Made by a program: the position numbers and the translations under genes. This document shows, in pieces, positions 34,871 through 40,815 of a stretch of DNA of 64,000 bases. The stretch is from positions 10,007-74,006 of the forward strand of contig JAGLDY010000015.1 of assembly GCA_023145375.1 (NCBI GenBank), in the 5' to 3' direction. Each line of letters opens with the position of its first letter. Position 1 is the stretch's first letter. The notes below the pieces were generated by a model. The model searched no databases, had not been told where the DNA came from, and saw nothing but the letters and a program-made list of their open reading frames with translations. This DNA comes from Candidatus Sabulitectum sp. GTDB taxonomy: Bacteria; Fermentibacterota; Fermentibacteria; Fermentibacterales; JCC-6.

Positions 34871-35646
34871 TGTTTTTCCGGCTTTCTGGCAAATACGCCG
34901 ATCACTACAGCGGTTCTAGGTCCCAGCCAGCTCTGTTCCACAGCCTCTCTCACCCTTGTTCGGAGCCTGTGGACCGCGGGAATGATCACCGGTTTCATTG
35001 GCAGTTTGATCCCGATCTTCATAAGAACCTCACGGGTCATTCTGTAACCCAGAGAGGGGGAGAAATACCTTCCATATACTGACCATGGTTCAATGCCGTG
35101 TTCCCGGAGATAGCTGCTCAACTGCTTTTCCGTGTACTGTGTTTCCCAGCCGGCAAACCAGGCATTTAGCGCAATAAGAGTTTTCTTGATCACTGTGTAG
35201 ATGTGAAAGGTCTGGGGAACATCAACAAGGATATCCCCACCGGGCTTTGTTACCCTTATGCACTCATCTGTCATTGGGTCTGTATCTTTAAAATGTTCCA
35301 TAACTCCCTGGTGGAAAACCAGATCGAATGTGTCTGCTTTAAATGGAAGCGCATTTGCATCACCACACACCAGAAAGAGTGTCTTTTCCTTTTCTGTGGC
35401 AGCTGCCCGGGCGAGTTTCAGTGCAGCATGTGAATAATCCAGAGCAACAGGCAGGGCTCCGTCCTCGGCAAGAGCAACACTGTCTCTTGCTGTGGCAGCA
35501 CCTACTTCAAGAGTGAGCATGTTCTGCAGGCTGAGTCGCTTTCTGACCTCTACCCTTATCCTGTCATCATTATCGTAGATTTCGGAAAGGTCTCTTTCCC
35601 TTTCCCAGAATCTGTCCCAGTGTGATCTTTCAGACGAACGGGCCAT
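34867..35646 (-). CDS. Methyltransferase-domain protein (Methyltransf_11-like) with an atypical motif I
   Basis: It has DLVFHQGVMEHF and TKPGGDILV. Motif I reads LEVGAATARD, which is GAATA rather than GxGxG. It overlaps the GT4 gene by 4 nt. Confidence 0.5.
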   Translation of the reverse strand: MARSSERSHWDRFWERERDLSEIYDNDDRIRVEVRKRLSLQNMLTLEVGAATARDSVALAEDGALPVALDYSHAALKLARAAATEKEKTLFLVCGDANALPFKADTFDLVFHQGVMEHFKDTDPMTDECIRVTKPGGDILVDVPQTFHIYTVIKKTLIALNAWFAGWETQYTEKQLSSYLREHGIEPWSVYGRYFSPSLGYRMTREVLMKIGIKLPMKPVIIPAVHRLRTRVREAVEQSWLGPRTAVVIGVFARKPEKQ

Positions 35647-35779
35647 TCCCCTCCTTTACTGCTTCCATTCCGTAATCTACAATATCGCAAAGAAGTTGAC
35701 CAATCAGGTGGTAATTGAATATATACCTGCCATCCAGGGATATTACCGAGCAGTAAGCAAGCATAAGGATGAACAATAT

Positions 35780-36283
35780 ATGAACTTGTCTCTCAGGCGT
35801 TTTGAGGAAAAAGATCTGGCTCATCTTGATGCATGGAGCCATGCTGTAGGTGCTCACAAGTATATGCAGAAGATCACACCTCTGAACTATTCATCCCCGG
35901 GGGACCTGGACCACTGGGGGACAGATTTTGTCTGGTTTGCGATCACAGTTAACGGAGAGGCTATCGGTGGAGTCTGGATAGACAGAAGGCGTCCCGGTGA
36001 TACTCTTGGAATACTGGGAATCCTCATCGGCAGGCCTGATATCCTTGGAAAGGGCATTGGCCGCCGTTCAATTGAAACAGCTATCCGCGAGGCCGTACAG
36101 GTTCTTGGGATCTCCCGTGTCAGACTTACGGTGCGAAAGGCCAACGAGAGAGCCATCAGAGCGTATCGCAGCACAGGCTTCGAGGTTACCGGAGAGGGAA
36201 CTGCCACCCTTGAAGATGGGACATCTGTACCATTCTATCGCATGGAATCAGATATTTTAGAAGAAGCAGCCCCGGCGATATAG
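35780..36283 (+). CDS. GNAT-family N-acetyltransferase
   Basis: The start is taken at MNLSLRRFEEKD. The acetyl-CoA-binding motif is GRPDILGKGIGRRSIE. Confidence 0.7.
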   Translation: MNLSLRRFEEKDLAHLDAWSHAVGAHKYMQKITPLNYSSPGDLDHWGTDFVWFAITVNGEAIGGVWIDRRRPGDTLGILGILIGRPDILGKGIGRRSIETAIREAVQVLGISRVRLTVRKANERAIRAYRSTGFEVTGEGTATLEDGTSVPFYRMESDILEEAAPAI

Positions 36284-36369
36284 TATTCCTTTTTTCCCAT
36301 TTATGCTTTTAAGGTTGCCCGACACAACCGCAGGTATTATTAACAAGGTAATACTATCAGGAGGGGAAC

Positions 36370-36705
36370 ATGAAAGCCGTTAAGATCATCCTTGCAGTTG
36401 CCGGAGTAACTCTTGTGTTCTCCGGTCTTGTCTTTGTCATTGGAAGAAGACCGGTAACAGGCGCTGTTATGCTTGGGATCGGTGTCTTTATGATCATTTA
36501 CGGCCTGAGAAAACCAAAAACAAGAGATGTTGTGGTAAGGCGGGAGCTTGAGCTCTCCGGTGATGTGGATATTGAGAGTATGAAGTGCAACCAGTGCGGA
36601 GGCACCCTCTCCTCTGAGAATGTGTCAGTAAAAGCTGGAGCGGTGTTCGTCTCATGCCCGTACTGCGGCAGTGAATATCAGATAGAGGAGGCGCCCAAAT
36701 GGTGA
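36370..36705 (+). CDS. Small membrane protein with a C-terminal zinc-ribbon (CxxC...CxxC)
   Basis: It has two TM helices, followed by CNQCGG and CPYCGS. It overlaps the DUF2207 gene start by 7 nt. Confidence 0.55.
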   Translation: MKAVKIILAVAGVTLVFSGLVFVIGRRPVTGAVMLGIGVFMIIYGLRKPKTRDVVVRRELELSGDVDIESMKCNQCGGTLSSENVSVKAGAVFVSCPYCGSEYQIEEAPKW

Positions 36706-38270
36706 AGAGCCTGCTTATTCTTCTTTTGCTTCTCATCCCTCTTTCTGCAAGTGGTCAGAATTATGATTTCTCTATTCCGGAGTTCAAATGTGTGGTGGAG
36801 GTGAACAGGGACAGAAGCCTTGATATAAGCTACGATATCTTCTTTGAGTGCACCCCGGGCTACAGCAGTATAGACATTGTTGATATTGGATTTCCTTCAA
36901 GCGACTTCAGTCTGTCCGATGTGGAGGCTGGTGTGGACAGCCATACTCTTTCCCGTATTTACTATTCAACCTATATAGACAATGGTGTAGAGGTTCATCT
37001 GGACGGAAATGCCATCCATTCGGGAGAGCAGGGACATTTCCGGTTCACCGGCGTGAACAGAGATATGGTCTTTCTGGATACAGAGGAAGATGACTATGCT
37101 TCCATGGAGTTCTCCCCAACATGGTTTGATGGTGGGATACTCAGCGGTTCAAGTGATTTTACCCTGATCGTGGTCTTTCCTCCCGGGGCAGACCCCGACC
37201 TTGTCAGGCACCATGCCAGACCCTTCACCAGCTCCACAGTTGATAAGGACGGTCGGGTGGTATACACCTGGGAAGAGACCAGGCGTGTTGATTCAAAGTA
37301 CATCGTAGGTATCTCGTTTCCGGTGGCTCTGGTTGATGGACCTCTTCTGGAAAGACCCGGGGAACCCTTTTTAAGCGAAGGTGCTCTTGTCGCACTGGCT
37401 GGTTTTGCTTTCTTTTTCCTTTTCTTTGGCTTCATGATATTAATAATTGTCAAAGCAGTAATTAAAGCAAAGCGTAGAAGAGAAGAGTACCTTCCTCCGA
37501 AACTCGGCCTTGAGGGTTCTGGAATAAGGCGAGGGCTGACAGCGCCTCTCGCGGCGTTGCTTCTTGAGGAGAAGCTGGACAGGATATTCGTTCTTATAGT
37601 CTTCGGGCTTTTAAAGAAAGGCAGTCTTCAGTTTGATGAAGATCAACTTGAAAAGACCGGCCTGACAGATGGCCTTCGGTCTTACGAAAAAGAGTTGCTT
37701 GCACTTTTTCCCGATGGTCCTTCCGGCAAGCCTGTTCCTGAAGAAGAGATAAGAAAGATATTCCTCGGCATGATCGAGGTTCTTGAGAAGAAAATGGAAG
37801 GATTCTCTCTTAAAGAAACTCAGGCATACTACAGGAGTGTCATAGAAAGCGCCTGGAAGATGGTATCTGCTGATCGTTCCGCTGAAAAAGCCGGTGAGAT
37901 CCTTGGTGAAAGATTCCAGTGGCTTCTGGCAGACGGGAAATATGATTCCAGAGCAAGGAAGCTTCCCTCAGATACTGACATTCTTCTTCCCATGTACATG
38001 TACGGCTTTTTTCCCGGGACTTCGCGAATGATTCATGGGAGTTCCAGCACTGGTGGAATGAACCTTTCACAGGCCTGCACGCAGGTTGCAGGGGCTCTGG
38101 AAAGAACAGCAGGTAACGCTGTGAGCAATATCACAAGGTTGTCTTCTTCGGTGACTGCAAAGACAAACCCGGTTCCTGTATCTACTTCCAGGGGTTCAAG
38201 CGGTGGTGGATGCGCCTGTGCGTGCGCCTGCGCAGGATGTGCCTGCGCCTGTGCAGGGGGAGGAAGGTAA
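36699..38270 (+). CDS. DUF2207-like membrane protein with a C-terminal (Cys-Ala)n tail
   Basis: The signal peptide is MVKSLLILLLLLIPLSASG, and there is an internal TM helix (ALAGFAFFFLFFGFMILIIV). The C-terminus is SSGGGCACACACAGCACACAGGGR. The codons at 38211-38255 vary synonymously (TGC/TGT, GCC/GCG/GCA), which argues for protein-level selection. An RBS (GAGGAGG) precedes the start. Confidence 0.7.
   Translation: MVKSLLILLLLLIPLSASGQNYDFSIPEFKCVVEVNRDRSLDISYDIFFECTPGYSSIDIVDIGFPSSDFSLSDVEAGVDSHTLSRIYYSTYIDNGVEVHLDGNAIHSGEQGHFRFTGVNRDMVFLDTEEDDYASMEFSPTWFDGGILSGSSDFTLIVVFPPGADPDLVRHHARPFTSSTVDKDGRVVYTWEETRRVDSKYIVGISFPVALVDGPLLERPGEPFLSEGALVALAGFAFFFLFFGFMILIIVKAVIKAKRRREEYLPPKLGLEGSGIRRGLTAPLAALLLEEKLDRIFVLIVFGLLKKGSLQFDEDQLEKTGLTDGLRSYEKELLALFPDGPSGKPVPEEEIRKIFLGMIEVLEKKMEGFSLKETQAYYRSVIESAWKMVSADRSAEKAGEILGERFQWLLADGKYDSRARKLPSDTDILLPMYMYGFFPGTSRMIHGSSSTGGMNLSQACTQVAGALERTAGNAVSNITRLSSSVTAKTNPVPVSTSRGSSGGGCACACACAGCACACAGGGR
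38211..38255 (+). repeat. (Cys-Ala)n-encoding microrepeat at the DUF2207 C-terminus
   Basis: The codon run is TGC GCC TGT GCG TGC GCC TGC GCA GGA TGT GCC TGC GCC TGT GCA. The shifted frame of this run creates the spurious N-terminal extension of the next ORF in the track. Confidence 0.8.
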
Positions 38271-38272
38271 TC

Positions 38273-39592
38273 ATGATAAAACATCTGAAAGAATCCGGAA
38301 AGAGAATTTCAGAGCAGGGTATGCATCATTTCCGAAATGGTGAACACAGAGTCCATCTGCGAATCAGTGAGAACGGCCGGGGAATACTAACAGTGGACGC
38401 GTCACGGATAATTCACCTTAATCCTGTGGCTGTTGATATGGCCTGGATGATACTCTCTGAGATTCCAGATAAGTACATTCTTAAGTCTCTCAGAAGAAGA
38501 TATTCTGTAAAAAAGAAGCAGGCAGCGAATGATCTGGAAGAGTTTGGTAAAGTTCTCAACGACATTCTGGAAACTGGGGCTTCAGAACCGATCACTTTTG
38601 TCAACATGGAAGTGACAGAACCTTTCCAGGCTGAAGTCGAGGTACCGTACAGGATGGACCTTGCTCTTACTTACAGGTGCAACATCAACTGCGGTCACTG
38701 TTACAACCAGACCCGTGAGAAGAATGAACTTTCAACTGAACAGTGGAAGACCATAATGAAGAAGATCTGGGATCTGGGTATCCCTCATGTGATATTCACA
38801 GGCGGTGAGTCTACCCTTCGTGACGACCTCGAGGAACTGATCCAGTACGCGGAAGCCCTGGGCCTTGTAACAGGTCTGCTTACAAACGGAGTAAAGCTGT
38901 CAAACGAGGTTTATCTGCAGAGCCTTGTTGACGCAGGTCTTGATCACATTCAGATAACCTTGGAATCAAGTGAAAGAGATACACACAACAAAATGACAGG
39001 CGCTGACAGCTTTGACAGCACTGTACAGGGGATCAGAAACTGCGTGAAAGCAGGTATCCACACCATTACAAACACCACCATAACCGAGGAGAACAGTGAG
39101 GGTATGGCCGATACAATGCAATTCGCTCACGACCTGGGTCTTTCCTCGGTGGCGGCTAATACCATAATACACAGCGGCAAAGCCCTTGAAGGTGATTTTG
39201 CGGTGAGCACAGATAAACTGGAAAACATAATTCTCTCAATGAATGAGAAGATCGAAGAACTGGGAATGAGGTTCATCTGGTACTCGCCCACAAGATACTG
39301 CAGTTTCAATCCCCTGGAGTTCGATCTCGGAGCAAAGAGGTGCACAGCAGGTGAATACAACCTCTGTATCGAGCCGGATGGTGAGGTACTCCCATGCCAG
39401 AGCTGGTACGAATCTGCCGGCAACATCCTGACATCAGAGTGGGATTCTATCTGGAACAGTGACTTGATGAAGAATGCCCGTAACAGAGAATGGGTGGACG
39501 ATGTTTGCAGGGAGTGTGTTGACTTGAGCCTTTGCGGAGGAGGATGCCCCCTTGAAAAGAAGAACGGAGCCCCCTGCAGGGACTCAATGTAA
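38273..39592 (+). CDS. Radical SAM enzyme with a C-terminal SPASM domain, and an N-terminal domain I read as a PqqD-like RiPP recognition element. A putative peptide/protein-modifying maturase.
   Basis: The ATG lies 2 nt after the DUF2207 stop, with a GGAGGAAGG RBS. The N-terminal 90 aa (VDASRIIHLNPVAVDMAWMILSE...) resemble a PqqD-like RRE. The radical SAM motif is CNINCGHC (CX3CX2C), and the C-terminal Cys cluster (CSFNP...CTAGEYNLCIEPDGEVLPC...CRECVDLSLCGGGCP) is typical of SPASM. Confidence 0.8.
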   Translation: MIKHLKESGKRISEQGMHHFRNGEHRVHLRISENGRGILTVDASRIIHLNPVAVDMAWMILSEIPDKYILKSLRRRYSVKKKQAANDLEEFGKVLNDILETGASEPITFVNMEVTEPFQAEVEVPYRMDLALTYRCNINCGHCYNQTREKNELSTEQWKTIMKKIWDLGIPHVIFTGGESTLRDDLEELIQYAEALGLVTGLLTNGVKLSNEVYLQSLVDAGLDHIQITLESSERDTHNKMTGADSFDSTVQGIRNCVKAGIHTITNTTITEENSEGMADTMQFAHDLGLSSVAANTIIHSGKALEGDFAVSTDKLENIILSMNEKIEELGMRFIWYSPTRYCSFNPLEFDLGAKRCTAGEYNLCIEPDGEVLPCQSWYESAGNILTSEWDSIWNSDLMKNARNREWVDDVCRECVDLSLCGGGCPLEKKNGAPCRDSM

Positions 39593-40232
39593 AAGGGATC
39601 AGCTGTGGGATATCTACAGAAGACAGTTCCATGAGCTGGCGCCTCTCCGCAGGCACATCTGTTCACAGCTTCCTCTCAGGAAGATCCACAGTCTCTTTGA
39701 ACCGGGCTGTGGAACCGGGCTTCTGGGGAATGAGCTTCAGAGCCTTACTGATGCCGCCTACACAGGGATGGACATCGATCCGAGTATTCTACCTGAAGGT
39801 GAAAGTAACAGATTCCTGGCCGGTGATGCCGTTAAGAACCCTCTTCACGCCGATCTTTATGTCTCTTCCTTTTTCTTCTCCAGTGTGGATAAACCTGTAA
39901 AGTGGTTGAAAAAGGTGCGGAAGAACCTTTCATCGGACGGATTGTTCGCGGTCTTTGCTGAATACGACTACACCCGGATAAGTGAATCTCCGGATACCGG
40001 CCTGGGTGATCTGATCAGAGCAGGTCTTGAGAGGGACAGCATTAATACGACCAATGGAAGTCAGCTTGATCTATTCTTTCAAGAAGCAGGCTTCAGGAAA
40101 CAGGCAGGCGGTGAAGTTCAGAGTTCTCTTCAAAAGCCGGACAGAGCTTTCCTGGAGATGCACACGGAGAACCTCCCGGATGATATTCCCCTTATGTCAT
40201 GGAGAATCGTCTGGGGTATCTGGAGGAGCTGA
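39552..40232 (+). CDS. Class I SAM-dependent methyltransferase
   Basis: Motif I is LFEPGCGTGLLG. It overlaps the 3' end of the rSAM gene, so the two are probably co-transcribed. Confidence 0.6.
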   Translation: MKRRTEPPAGTQCKRDQLWDIYRRQFHELAPLRRHICSQLPLRKIHSLFEPGCGTGLLGNELQSLTDAAYTGMDIDPSILPEGESNRFLAGDAVKNPLHADLYVSSFFFSSVDKPVKWLKKVRKNLSSDGLFAVFAEYDYTRISESPDTGLGDLIRAGLERDSINTTNGSQLDLFFQEAGFRKQAGGEVQSSLQKPDRAFLEMHTENLPDDIPLMSWRIVWGIWRS

Positions 40233-40634
40233 GATTGAAACAAGCAACAACGCCAGGACTCCCAGCCCACCCAGGTAGATAAACAGGTCCAGGCGAACTG
40301 CTGACCCTATTGCAGTTCTTGGCATAAAACCCAGTACGAATGCCATTGCCGAGGAAACTGCTAAATGGACTGATAGTTTTTTGCTTCGCTTTTTATAGAG
40401 TTTGATCACTGCACTCAGAGAAGAACTGAACATCAGTAACGCGGCAATGCCCGCGAGAAGGTTTATGGTGTAGTTGTTCTCGGGGAAACCACTGCTGTAC
40501 CTGAGGTATTGAACAACATCCGCAATTCCTGTGAAGAACCCAGCCACTACTGAAATCCACAGAAACAGTGATACCGAACTTACAGAGATCCTGCGTGCAG
40601 CTTCAGTAAATAGTTTCGTAAATGCCTCTTTCAC
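40197..40634 (-). CDS. Integral membrane protein with about four TM helices
   Basis: It has four hydrophobic helices. It is convergent with the methyltransferase and overlaps its 3' end. Confidence 0.45.
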   Translation of the reverse strand: MKEAFTKLFTEAARRISVSSVSLFLWISVVAGFFTGIADVVQYLRYSSGFPENNYTINLLAGIAALLMFSSSLSAVIKLYKKRSKKLSVHLAVSSAMAFVLGFMPRTAIGSAVRLDLFIYLGGLGVLALLLVSISAPPDTPDDSP

Positions 40635-40815
40635 TTCTGATTGGCATCCAGGTGGTGACCACCGGCTATCAGGGTCTCTGTGTCATACGATCTGCCGTGA
40701 ACAGGGGCCACTTCATCCCAGTGTTTCCTGTTGATCTCTTCTGCTTTGTAATCTCTGGCCATAGTATTCTCCCAAAAGAATGCCCCCCGGGCAGGGGGGC
40801 ACTGCACAGTCTGGT

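What the first reader, a model, noticed from the sequence alone, without database searches (positions are those of the whole stretch)
36370..40232. Membrane protein with a C-terminal (Cys-Ala)n tail translationally coupled to an rSAM-SPASM maturase: a candidate in-cis post-translational modification system
The DUF2207-like membrane protein ends with GGGCACACACAGCACACAGGGR. The stretch runs Cys, Ala, Cys, Ala, Cys, Ala, Gly, Cys, Ala, Cys, Ala, Cys, Ala (seven Cys in all) between Gly runs. The run is encoded with mixed synonymous codons, so the repeat is maintained at the protein level rather than being a DNA slippage artefact. Two nucleotides after its stop, behind a strong RBS, begins an enzyme with a CX3CX2C radical SAM core and a multi-Cys SPASM domain. 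Its N-terminal domain looks to me like a PqqD-like RiPP recognition element. This architecture is that of sactisynthases, ranthipeptide/SCIFF maturases, QhpD and anSME. All of these act on Cys residues, forming thioethers or converting Cys to formylglycine. The operon also includes a small two-TM zinc-ribbon protein upstream and a SAM methyltransferase downstream. No separate short precursor ORF is visible. The simplest reading is that the Cys-rich tail of the membrane protein is the substrate. Under that reading this would be a RiPP-like chemistry applied to a full-length membrane protein, with cross-linked or otherwise modified Cys residues, perhaps followed by methylation. I am not aware of a characterised DUF2207 tail-modification system.
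Basis: partly seen in the sequence, partly recalled or inferred. Interest (0 to 1): 0.88.

Follow-up and report, generated by a model that had tools for sequence, protein, structure and literature searches.

The report
Radical-SAM enzyme paired with Cys-Ala-tailed membrane protein
A membrane protein ends in an almost invariant Cys-Ala repeat and sits beside a peptide-modifying radical-SAM enzyme in hundreds of uncultured anaerobic bacteria and archaea, which points to an undescribed modification of a whole membrane protein.

Summary
The 523-aa protein (36699-38270) ends in GGG-(CA)4-G-(CA)3-GGGR. An RRE/radical-SAM/SPASM enzyme starts 2 nt after its stop. A two-TM zinc-ribbon protein lies upstream and a SAM methyltransferase downstream.

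- **Tail conservation.** The tail is essentially invariant in 117 of 120 homologues, down to 29% identity. It is written in 185 different DNA versions among 188 tails, so selection acts on the protein.
- **Linkage from the enzyme side.** 68 of 80 genome loci found through the rSAM have a tail protein directly upstream. The hosts include Fermentibacteria, Chloroflexota, Acidobacteriota and Bathyarchaeia.
- **Linkage from the tail side.** 104 of about 108 evaluable metagenome loci found through the tail DNA pattern have the rSAM.
- **What is absent.** I found no small precursor ORF, protease or exporter that recurs.
- **A second family.** More than 3,400 shorter proteins, apparently from Firmicutes, carry (CA)nG(CA)nGGGRAGCSxKDFY. 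All four members I checked sit beside a homologous rSAM, without the zinc-ribbon or methyltransferase genes.

The minimal module is therefore the enzyme plus the Cys-Ala motif. No NCBIfam model or searched paper describes it. "DUF2207-like" holds only as a distant relationship of the ectodomain.

The best reading is that the cytoplasmic tail is the enzyme's substrate. The chemistry is unknown; thioether cross-links are my leading guess. I class it as a new variant of a known kind and of high interest.

The parts
36370..36705 (+). Small membrane protein (111 aa) with two N-terminal TM helices and a cytoplasmic CxxC...CxxC zinc ribbon. It ends in the family-invariant motif YQ..EEPKW and overlaps the next gene by 7 nt.
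   Evidence: ORF and translation. Zinc-ribbon Pfam and NCBIfam hits are weak. Homologues lie upstream of the tail gene in about 58-64 of 80 loci. The alignment of 129 sequences is.
36699..38270 (+). Tail-bearing membrane protein (523 aa). It has a signal peptide (aa 1-20), a beta-sandwich ectodomain (aa 24-208), a TM helix (aa 227-262), a cytoplasmic helical domain (aa 282-489) and a disordered S/G-rich linker with the Cys-Ala tail (aa 495-523).
38151..38183 (+). Leader-like conserved segment V485-S495 (VTAKTNPVPVS), 10 residues upstream of the Cys core. It is a candidate docking site for the enzyme's RRE domain; this role is inferred.
   Evidence: T486, N490, P491 and P493 are at least 90% conserved across 46 diverse homologues. 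The motif is visible.
38211..38267 (+). Cys-Ala core (CA)4-G-(CA)3, C505-A519 at 38211-38255, followed by the invariant GGGR (38256-38267). It is the proposed modification site.
   Evidence: Invariant columns are listed. The block conservation is 0.91-1.00. There are 185 distinct DNA encodings among 188 tails, using all synonymous codons including all six Arg codons.
38273..39592 (+). RRE/radical-SAM/SPASM enzyme (439 aa). The PqqD-like RRE spans aa 16-104 (38318-38584), CX3CX2C spans aa 136-143 (38678-38701), and the SPASM cysteines span aa 343-435 (39299-39577).
   Evidence: Pfam hits are. It scores below the cutoff of every NCBIfam family. The closest solved structures are SkfB, PqqE, SuiB and CteB. 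The AlphaFold2 model has four N-terminal strands followed by three helices.
39552..40232 (+). Class I SAM-dependent methyltransferase (226 aa). It starts at TTG and overlaps the rSAM by 41 nt. It is a conserved accessory of the long-family cassette.
   Evidence: Pfam Methyltransf_12, _11 and _23 hits. TTG is the only in-frame start and is preceded by GAGGA. The gene is present in 73 of 80 loci.

Best explanation
This is a four-gene operon encoding a zinc-ribbon membrane protein, a tail-bearing membrane protein, an RRE/rSAM/SPASM enzyme and a methyltransferase. In it, the enzyme post-translationally modifies the C-terminal tail of the membrane protein itself.

**Proposed mechanism**
- The membrane protein is a type I protein with an extracellular beta-sandwich domain, one TM helix and a cytoplasmic helical domain.
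- It ends in a disordered Ser/Gly linker followed by (CA)4-G-(CA)3-GGGR, which lies in the cytoplasm.
- The enzyme's N-terminal PqqD-like RRE docks on the segment just upstream of the core (VTxxTNPVPVS in this family).
- The radical-SAM/SPASM core then acts on the cysteines.
- My leading guess for the chemistry is intramolecular thioether bridges, from Cys sulfur to a backbone or side-chain carbon of the neighbouring Ala residues.
- The methyltransferase adds a later tailoring step.
- The product stays attached to the membrane protein and is not cleaved or exported.

**Shown and inferred**
- Shown: the anatomy, the extreme conservation of the tail at the protein level, and the tight, cross-phylum, bidirectional gene linkage.
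- Inferred: that the tail is the substrate, where the RRE docks, and the chemistry.
For: **Tail conservation**
- The tail is invariant in 117 of 120 homologues, down to 29% identity.
- It is far more conserved than the rest of the protein.
- It is encoded 185 different ways among 188 tails.

**Linkage**
- 68 of 80 rSAM-anchored genome loci, spanning more than 10 phyla and including Bathyarchaeia, have the tail protein directly upstream on the same strand.
- 104 of about 108 evaluable tail-anchored metagenome loci have the rSAM.
- The gene order is rearranged in one subgroup (zinc ribbon, rSAM, pseudo-rSAM, tail protein, methyltransferase), yet the gene set is kept.
- A distant short family of more than 3,400 proteins shares only the ectodomain and the CACACAGGGR core. 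All four members checked still sit next to a homologous rSAM (33% identity, E=2e-58) and lack the zinc-ribbon and methyltransferase genes.

**Enzyme type**
- The enzyme has the architecture of RiPP maturases. PqqD matches 19 of 25 family members.
- The predicted fold has a strand-plus-helix N-terminal domain.
- The best full-length structural neighbours are SkfB, SuiB and CteB.

**Topology and context**
- The TM helix is followed by KAKRRREEY, which places the tail in the cytoplasm, where the enzyme is.
- No small precursor, protease or exporter recurs in these loci.
Against: - There is no biochemical evidence, and no complex prediction could be run.
- Eight of 76 evaluable rSAM loci, and at least one tail locus (L133), lack the partner within the flank. 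Linkage is therefore strong but not absolute.
- The zinc-ribbon protein also has an invariant C-terminus (EEPKW) and could be a second substrate.
- CxC repeats are also typical of metal-thiolate binding, so the tail could act unmodified.
- The chemistry cannot be deduced. The enzyme scores below the cutoff of every curated rSAM family and is about equally distant from thioether-forming and C-C-forming enzymes.
- The leader-like motif NPVPVS is absent from the short family and from the Bathyarchaeia version.
Confidence: 0.62

Rival explanations
1. The tail is the substrate, but the chemistry is not thioether formation. The rSAM might oxidise Cys to formylglycine or dehydroalanine as anSME does, epimerise residues, or build a protein-derived cofactor. 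The methyltransferase would cap the product.
For: anSME is a SPASM enzyme that acts on Cys of full-length proteins, and it appears among the structural and sequence neighbours. The enzyme belongs to no curated family, so the chemistry is open. A conserved methyltransferase (73 of 80 loci) suggests a nucleophile is created or exposed.
Against: The tail lacks the anSME recognition motif C/S-x-P/A-x-R (sequence). The closest full-length neighbours carry RRE domains and are cross-linking enzymes: SkfB, SuiB and CteB. The short family has no methyltransferase.
Confidence: 0.17
2. The Cys-Ala tail is a metal- or Fe-S-binding module, similar to the metallothionein CxC motif, and works without covalent modification. 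The rSAM acts on something else, and the gene linkage reflects a shared complex or pathway. For example, the tail might deliver metal or sulfur to the enzyme, or anchor it to the membrane.
For: Alternating CxC places all thiols on one face of a strand, as in metal-thiolate clusters (established knowledge of metallothioneins). The number of Cys varies from 6 to 10 between lineages. All hosts appear to be anaerobes.
Against: The enzyme carries a peptide-recognition (RRE) domain. No alternative peptide substrate recurs in about 200 loci. The spacer residues (Ala, the central Gly, GGGR) are as invariant as the cysteines, which a simple metal site would not require.
Confidence: 0.12
3. The true rSAM substrate is the small zinc-ribbon protein, for example through a Lys-Trp cross-link in its invariant C-terminal EEPKW, as in streptide. 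The tail protein would be a membrane partner.
For: The zinc-ribbon proteins end in an invariant YQ..EEPKW. In the rearranged loci the rSAM gene directly follows the zinc-ribbon gene. SuiB, a Lys-Trp cross-linker, is a close structural neighbour.
Against: The short family keeps the rSAM-plus-CA-motif pair without any zinc-ribbon gene. Bathyarchaeia zinc-ribbon proteins end in EEPLW, so the Lys is lost. The zinc-ribbon gene is absent from some tail-plus-rSAM loci, such as L030 and L078.
Confidence: 0.06
4. This is a conventional RiPP cluster in which a separate short precursor peptide was missed, and the tail is incidental low-complexity sequence or a DNA repeat artefact.
For: The TGYGCN repeats look like a simple DNA repeat, and small ORFs are easy to miss.
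Against: There are 185 distinct DNA encodings of the same peptide. Genes in the window overlap or are 2 nt apart. The median tail-to-rSAM gap is 43 nt. Only four gene families recur, none of them small, and there is no protease or exporter. The tail-profile search found no independent short family.
Confidence: 0.02

Closest known systems
Sactisynthases and ranthipeptide maturases with an N-terminal RRE (SkfB, AlbA, CteB/SCIFF maturase, StsB)
   Same: They share the three-part architecture of PqqD-like RRE, CX3CX2C radical-SAM barrel and C-terminal auxiliary-cluster domain. SkfB is the best sequence and structure match (6efn: E=1.5e-31; Foldseek E=1e-18). The substrate is Cys-rich.
   Different: Identity is only 15-22%, and the enzyme scores far below every NCBIfam cutoff (StsB 109 against 625, SkfB 100 against 300, AlbA 70 against 850). 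The substrate is the tail of a 523-aa membrane protein, not a 30-60-aa peptide. There is no protease or exporter. Cys alternates with Ala on both sides of a single Gly, rather than donor Cys on one arm and acceptors on the other.
QhpD acting on QhpC, and anSME acting on sulfatases (SPASM enzymes that modify proteins)
   Same: These are SPASM-domain radical-SAM enzymes that modify Cys residues of a protein that remains functional, not a secreted natural product.
   Different: QhpC cross-links run from Cys to Asp/Glu, and the tail here has neither. anSME needs C/S-x-P/A-x-R inside a sulfatase domain and has no RRE. Neither substrate is a membrane protein with a repeat tail. anSME is a weak match (E about 4e-7, SPASM region only).
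PqqE with PqqD
   Same: PqqE gives the best NCBIfam score (144 bits) and a strong PDB match (6c8v, E=6.6e-29). The N-terminal domain matches Pfam PqqD in 19 of 25 family members.
   Different: The score is far below the PqqE cutoff of 381 bits. There is no PqqA-like Glu/Tyr peptide and no pqq genes. The RRE is fused rather than separate.
DUF2207 membrane proteins (Pfam PF09972 and PF20990)
   Same: The overall plan is the same: an N-terminal extracytoplasmic beta-rich domain, a TM segment and a Gly-rich low-complexity C-terminus (the last point is from my own knowledge of the family). The short sister family matches the DUF2207 N-domain in 7 of 30 members (best E=6e-7). It aligns to the window family at 98.5% hhalign probability.
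   Different: The window protein has no Pfam hit at E<=1. It has a single TM helix and a GOLPH3-like cytoplasmic domain. The Cys-Ala motif and the rSAM partner are not described for DUF2207. The only functional paper found, on S. mutans SMU.243 (PMC10457818), concerns stress tolerance.
ACGX-repeat peptide system (TIGR04340/TIGR04341) and other Cys-rich peptide/rSAM pairs defined only by genomics
   Same: These pair a SPASM enzyme with a Cys/Ala/Gly-rich repeat target and were defined by co-occurrence. The chemistry is unknown in each case.
   Different: The ACGX rSAM model scores 74 bits against a cutoff of 400. The repeat unit is different, and that target is a short peptide.

Membership tests
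Radical SAM superfamily | CX3CX2C motif binding the SAM-cleaving [4Fe-4S] cluster, and a Pfam PF04055 score above the gathering threshold | tested here: met
   The motif is C136-NIN-C140-GH-C143. PF04055 scores 98.2 bits against a threshold of 29.5. The motif is present in 166 of 167 orthologues.
SPASM subfamily | C-terminal seven-Cys pattern CX9-15GX4C ... CX2CX5CX3C ... C, for two auxiliary clusters | tested here: met
   C357-x12-G370-x4-C375, C412-x2-C415-x5-C421-x3-C425 and C435, plus C343, are all invariant or nearly so. PF13186 scores 39.9 bits against a threshold of 21.5.
RRE (PqqD-like) containing RiPP maturases | N-terminal winged-helix domain of about three strands and three helices, homologous to PqqD | tested here: met
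   The window protein scores 21.3 bits, just under the threshold of 23.4. However, 19 of 25 family members match PF05402 (best E=7e-8). The AlphaFold2 model shows strands at 16-49 followed by helices at 51-104. The top full-length structural neighbours are the RRE-bearing SkfB, SuiB and CteB.
RRE (PqqD-like) containing RiPP maturases | The RRE binds the substrate's recognition sequence | not testable with these tools
The conserved VTxxTNPVPVS segment is only a candidate docking site.
Curated rSAM maturase families (PqqE, SkfB, AlbA, StsB, MftC, WgkB, ScmE/F, GeoRSP, ACGX) | Score at or above the NCBIfam curated cutoff | tested here: not met
   The best score is PqqE at 144 bits against 381. 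All 78 hits are below their cutoffs. The same holds for the short family's rSAMs.
Sactipeptide or ranthipeptide RiPP clusters | A short precursor with a cleavable leader, usually with a protease and/or exporter | tested here: not met
   The only carrier of the motif is a protein of 300-840 aa. Only the rSAM, methyltransferase, tail protein and zinc-ribbon protein recur. Gaps are too short for another gene, or hold transposases.
Sactipeptide or ranthipeptide RiPP clusters | Cys sulfur-to-carbon thioether in the product | not testable with these tools
   This needs mass spectrometry or NMR.
anSME-type Cys-to-formylglycine maturation | Substrate motif C/S-x-P/A-x-R in a sulfatase | tested here: not met
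   No such motif is present in CACACACAGCACACAGGGR, and there is no sulfatase domain.
QhpD/QhpC | Cys-to-Asp/Glu thioethers in a small dehydrogenase subunit | tested here: not met
   The tail has no Asp or Glu, and there are no qhp genes nearby.
DUF2207 (Pfam PF09972/PF20990) | A match to the Pfam N- or C-terminal domain model above threshold | tested here: not met
   The window protein has no hit at E<=1. Relatives give only sub-threshold hits, with E from 0.0045 to 0.25.
DUF2207 (Pfam PF09972/PF20990) | Remote homology of the ectodomain | tested here: inconclusive
   The short sister family matches PF09972 in 7 of 30 members (best E=6e-7). It aligns to the window family at 98.5% probability (E=2e-15). 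The AFDB fold library was unavailable, and no DUF2207 structure appeared among the PDB hits.

The most novel reading that the evidence does not exclude
The (CA)nG(CA)nGGGR motif is the precursor of a new protein-bound structure. This could be a thioether ladder or a sulfur-rich cofactor or metal site, built by a dedicated radical-SAM enzyme on the cytoplasmic tail of a receptor-like membrane protein. It would be conserved from gut Firmicutes to Bathyarchaeia. That would make it a new class of protein post-translational modification, not another natural-product pathway, and it would give a first functional handle on DUF2207-like proteins.
Probability: 0.3. Interest if true: 0.9.

Novelty: new variant of a known kind. 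Interest (0 to 1): 0.8.

Why it matters
RRE-bearing radical-SAM/SPASM enzymes are known almost only as makers of small secreted peptides. Here one is committed to the tail of a full-length membrane protein, with no sign of cleavage or export. The pair occurs in many phyla of anaerobic Bacteria and in Archaea, and a sister family is abundant in gut-type metagenomes.

If the tail is modified, RiPP-type chemistry would serve as an ordinary protein modification. It would also define a new, easily searchable substrate motif (CACACAGGGR). And it would give a testable function to a large set of "hypothetical" membrane proteins related to DUF2207.

The system is compact, two to five genes, so heterologous reconstitution is realistic.

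Tried and rejected
- **Pfam, NCBIfam and PADLOC scans of the four proteins.** There was no family for the tail protein or the zinc-ribbon protein. The rSAM gave only sub-threshold hits, and PADLOC gave only generic viperin and methyltransferase similarity.
- **Rfam scan of the whole window.** No matches.
- **Promoter and terminator scan of 35600-40800.** The promoter-like count was not above shuffled expectation, and the sites did not define operon boundaries.
- **Literature searches.** I searched DUF2207 with radical SAM, the tail peptide strings, Cys-Ala repeat terms and the GGGRAGC motif. The only hits were DNA primers or unrelated papers.
- **AFDB fold search.** The library was not available.
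- **PDB search for the methyltransferase.** Only weak matches to Bud23-type rRNA methyltransferases, which is uninformative.
- **Cluster-member look-up to name host organisms of the short family.** No names are on record.
- **Short proteins from the tail-profile search as possible free-standing precursors.** Rejected. They carry the upstream helix region of the tail family and are truncated gene calls.
- **Large tail-to-rSAM gaps as possible hiding places for a precursor.** Rejected. They hold an IS200/RAYT-like HUH transposase, toxin-antitoxin-like ORFs or unrelated genes.
- **GGGR conserved only because it doubles as the ribosome-binding site.** Rejected. All Gly codons and all six Arg codons are used. 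The motif is also kept where the rSAM is upstream, and in the short family where translation continues past it.

Full report
**What is in the window**

Four genes on the + strand are packed head to tail.
- A 111-aa protein (36370-36705) has two TM helices and a CxxC...CxxC zinc ribbon.
- A 523-aa protein (36699-38270) overlaps it by 7 nt.
- A 439-aa radical-SAM enzyme starts at the ATG at 38273, 2 nt after the TAA stop. Its ribosome-binding site, GGGGGAGGAAGG, lies inside the last four codons of the upstream gene.
- A 226-aa class I methyltransferase (39552-40232) starts at TTG and overlaps the enzyme by 41 nt.

The 523-aa protein ends in SSGGG-CACACACA-G-CACACA-GGGR, with seven Cys encoded by mixed TGC/TGT and GCC/GCG/GCA codons. 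The window comes from a Candidatus Sabulitectum (Fermentibacteria) MAG, because P0001 is 100% identical.

**The enzyme**

- It has C136-x3-C140-x2-C143 and a complete SPASM cysteine pattern: C357-x12-G-x4-C375, C412-x2-C-x5-C-x3-C425 and C435. Pfam gives Radical_SAM E=7.7e-28 and SPASM E=5.3e-10.
- Its N-terminal 100 residues score just under the PqqD threshold (21.3 against 23.4 bits). However, 19 of 25 family members match PqqD (best E=7e-8).
- The AlphaFold2 model (pLDDT 80.4) shows four strands followed by three helices in that region.
- The best full-length structural neighbours are SkfB, SuiB and CteB, which all carry an RRE domain. By sequence profile the best matches are SkfB (E=1.5e-31) and PqqE (E=6.6e-29).
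- It falls far below the curated cutoff of every NCBIfam rSAM family. The best is PqqE at 144 against 381 bits.

It therefore has the architecture of a RiPP maturase but belongs to no described family.

**The tail protein**

- It has no Pfam or NCBIfam hit.
- The AlphaFold2 model (pLDDT 84.9) gives a signal peptide, a beta-sandwich ectodomain (aa 24-208), one TM helix (aa 227-262, followed by KAKRRREEY), a helical cytoplasmic domain (aa 282-489) and a disordered tail (aa 495-523).
- The topology puts the tail in the cytoplasm, where the enzyme can reach it.

**Is the tail conserved?**

- Of 120 homologues listed, down to 29% identity, 117 end in CACACA(CA)GCACACAGGGR. The other three are truncated fragments.
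- In a 46-sequence alignment the tail block has a mean majority-residue fraction of 0.91-1.00, against 0.27-0.72 elsewhere. A segment 10-25 residues upstream (VTxxTNPVPVS) is also conserved.
- Across 188 tails from fetched loci there are 185 different DNA sequences. All Cys, Ala and Gly codons, all six Arg codons and all three stop codons are used.

Selection therefore acts on the peptide, including GGGR, and not on a DNA repeat or only on the ribosome-binding site.

**Is the enzyme linked to the tail?**

From the enzyme side, an rSAM profile search of one genome per species returned 80 loci. They come from Fermentibacteria, Acidobacteriota, Chloroflexota, Aminicenantes, Zixibacteria, Planctomycetota, Clostridia, Cloacimonadota, Actinomycetota and others, plus Bathyarchaeia.
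- In 68 of them a tail-family ORF lies directly upstream on the same strand.
- Four more are cut by a contig end.
- Eight have adequate flanks and no tail protein.
- In a tree, those eight nest inside tail-linked clades. This points to secondary separation of the genes, not a different ancestral substrate.

From the tail side, a degenerate DNA pattern for CACACAGCACACA returned 120 metagenome loci.
- 118 hits are at the C-terminus of tail-family ORFs.
- 87 have the rSAM within 2.5 kb downstream, 10 have an rSAM fragment at the contig end, and 7 have it upstream.
- Most of the rest lack flank. L133 is a clear exception.

Gene order can differ (zinc ribbon, rSAM, pseudo-rSAM, tail protein, methyltransferase) while the gene set is kept. 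All-against-all clustering of ORFs in the 80 loci finds only four recurrent families: rSAM (80 loci), methyltransferase (73), tail protein (68) and zinc-ribbon protein (58). No protease or exporter recurs.

**Is there a hidden small precursor?**

- The median distance from tail stop to rSAM start is 43 nt, and 116 of 144 pairs are under 100 nt.
- Larger gaps contain an IS200/RAYT-like transposase, toxin-antitoxin-like ORFs or unrelated genes.
- A profile of the tail, searched against 1.84 billion representative proteins, found 105 hits. The short ones carry the upstream helix region of the tail family and are truncated gene calls.

**A sister family**

Two tail-pattern hits, including one from a human gut metagenome, lie in a shorter protein where the motif continues as ...GGGRAGCSKKDFY.
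- A search with that protein found more than 3,400 relatives of 300-390 aa. 117 of the 120 listed carry (CA)n-G/S-(CA)n-GGGRAGCSxKDFY shortly after their second TM helix.
- The source locus (L132) and three distant members all have an rSAM-SPASM gene directly adjacent, among housekeeping genes. None has the zinc-ribbon or methyltransferase genes.
- That rSAM is 33% identical to the window enzyme over 418 residues, including the N-terminal domain (E=2e-58).
- The two membrane-protein families align over the ectodomain (hhalign 98.5%, E=2e-15).
- Seven of 30 short-family members match the Pfam DUF2207 N-domain.

So the minimal conserved module is the enzyme plus a membrane protein bearing CACACAGGGR. 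"DUF2207-like" is true only as a remote relationship of the ectodomain. No NCBIfam model covers either family.

**Interpretation**

The simplest account of these data is that the tail is the enzyme's substrate and stays on the protein. This rests on comparative genomics, domain architecture and topology; none of it is biochemical.

The chemistry is open. I favour thioether cross-links because the closest RRE-bearing relatives acting on Cys are sactisynthases, and because Ala is a known acceptor in sactipeptides (my own knowledge). The enzyme is nearly as close to C-C-forming enzymes, however. The tail lacks the anSME motif, and it has no Asp or Glu for QhpD-type links.

Alternatives are:
- a different Cys chemistry;
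- an unmodified metal-binding tail;
- the zinc-ribbon protein as substrate, which is weakened by the short family lacking it.

**Known or new?**

Six full-text searches found no paper on the motif or the pairing. No curated family exists for any partner. I class it as a new variant of a known kind: a known enzyme type with a new kind of substrate, a conserved repeat tail on a full-length membrane protein.

Noticed in passing
L037, L044, L047, L072 and about 66 other loci; also L004 6743-8014: Many Chloroflexota loci have a second rSAM paralogue between the rSAM and the methyltransferase. It keeps the RRE-like N-terminus and barrel motifs but lacks CxxxCxxC (68 of 70) and the SPASM cysteines. 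It is probably a catalytically dead partner. It is absent from the window.
   Followed up: partly
L066 5321-5899; also L100, L107, L110, L158, L177, L203: In seven loci, a gene of about 185 aa for an HUH-motif (..NHYHAIV..) IS200/RAYT-like transposase sits exactly between the tail gene and the rSAM gene.
   Followed up: partly
L132 3762-4754; L205-L210; proteins P0342-P0461: A large sister family (more than 3,400 proteins of 300-390 aa, in gut and Firmicutes-like contexts) carries (CA)nG(CA)nGGGRAGCSxKDFY after its second TM helix. It sits next to a homologous rSAM-SPASM, without the zinc-ribbon or methyltransferase genes.
   Followed up: partly
L051, L055, L062, L073 (Bathyarchaeia): The archaeal version of the tail has ten Cys in three blocks and a different ending: PSCVCACASCACACACVSCACACAHGGAR. 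The upstream NPVPVS motif is replaced by RPLRYP.
   Followed up: no
L069, L171, L197, L088, L093, L096, L160; P0258, P0300, P0303, P0304: Some loci encode two tail proteins in tandem. Some tail proteins (766-838 aa) have a duplicated ectodomain.
   Followed up: no
window 36370-36705 and homologues: The small zinc-ribbon membrane proteins end in a nearly invariant YQ..EEPKW. This is a second conserved C-terminus in the cassette, and its role is unknown.
   Followed up: partly
window 38210-38272; P0134, P0168, P0184, P0196, P0199: Gene callers often extend the rSAM N-terminus into the +1 reading frame of the tail DNA, giving Arg/Leu/Cys-rich artefacts such as MRLCVRLRRMCLRLCRGRK. This artefact itself signals an upstream CACACA tail.
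   Followed up: yes
L019, L021, L027, L034 (and L023, L032): One Anaerolineae subclade keeps the rSAM and methyltransferase as a pair but has no tail or zinc-ribbon gene within 5-7 kb. Conversely, L133 has a tail protein with no rSAM within 5 kb downstream. This suggests split loci.
   Followed up: partly
window 35696-36283: A GNAT acetyltransferase gene lies 86 nt upstream on the same strand. It did not appear among the gene families that recur in related loci, so it is probably not part of the system.
   Followed up: partly
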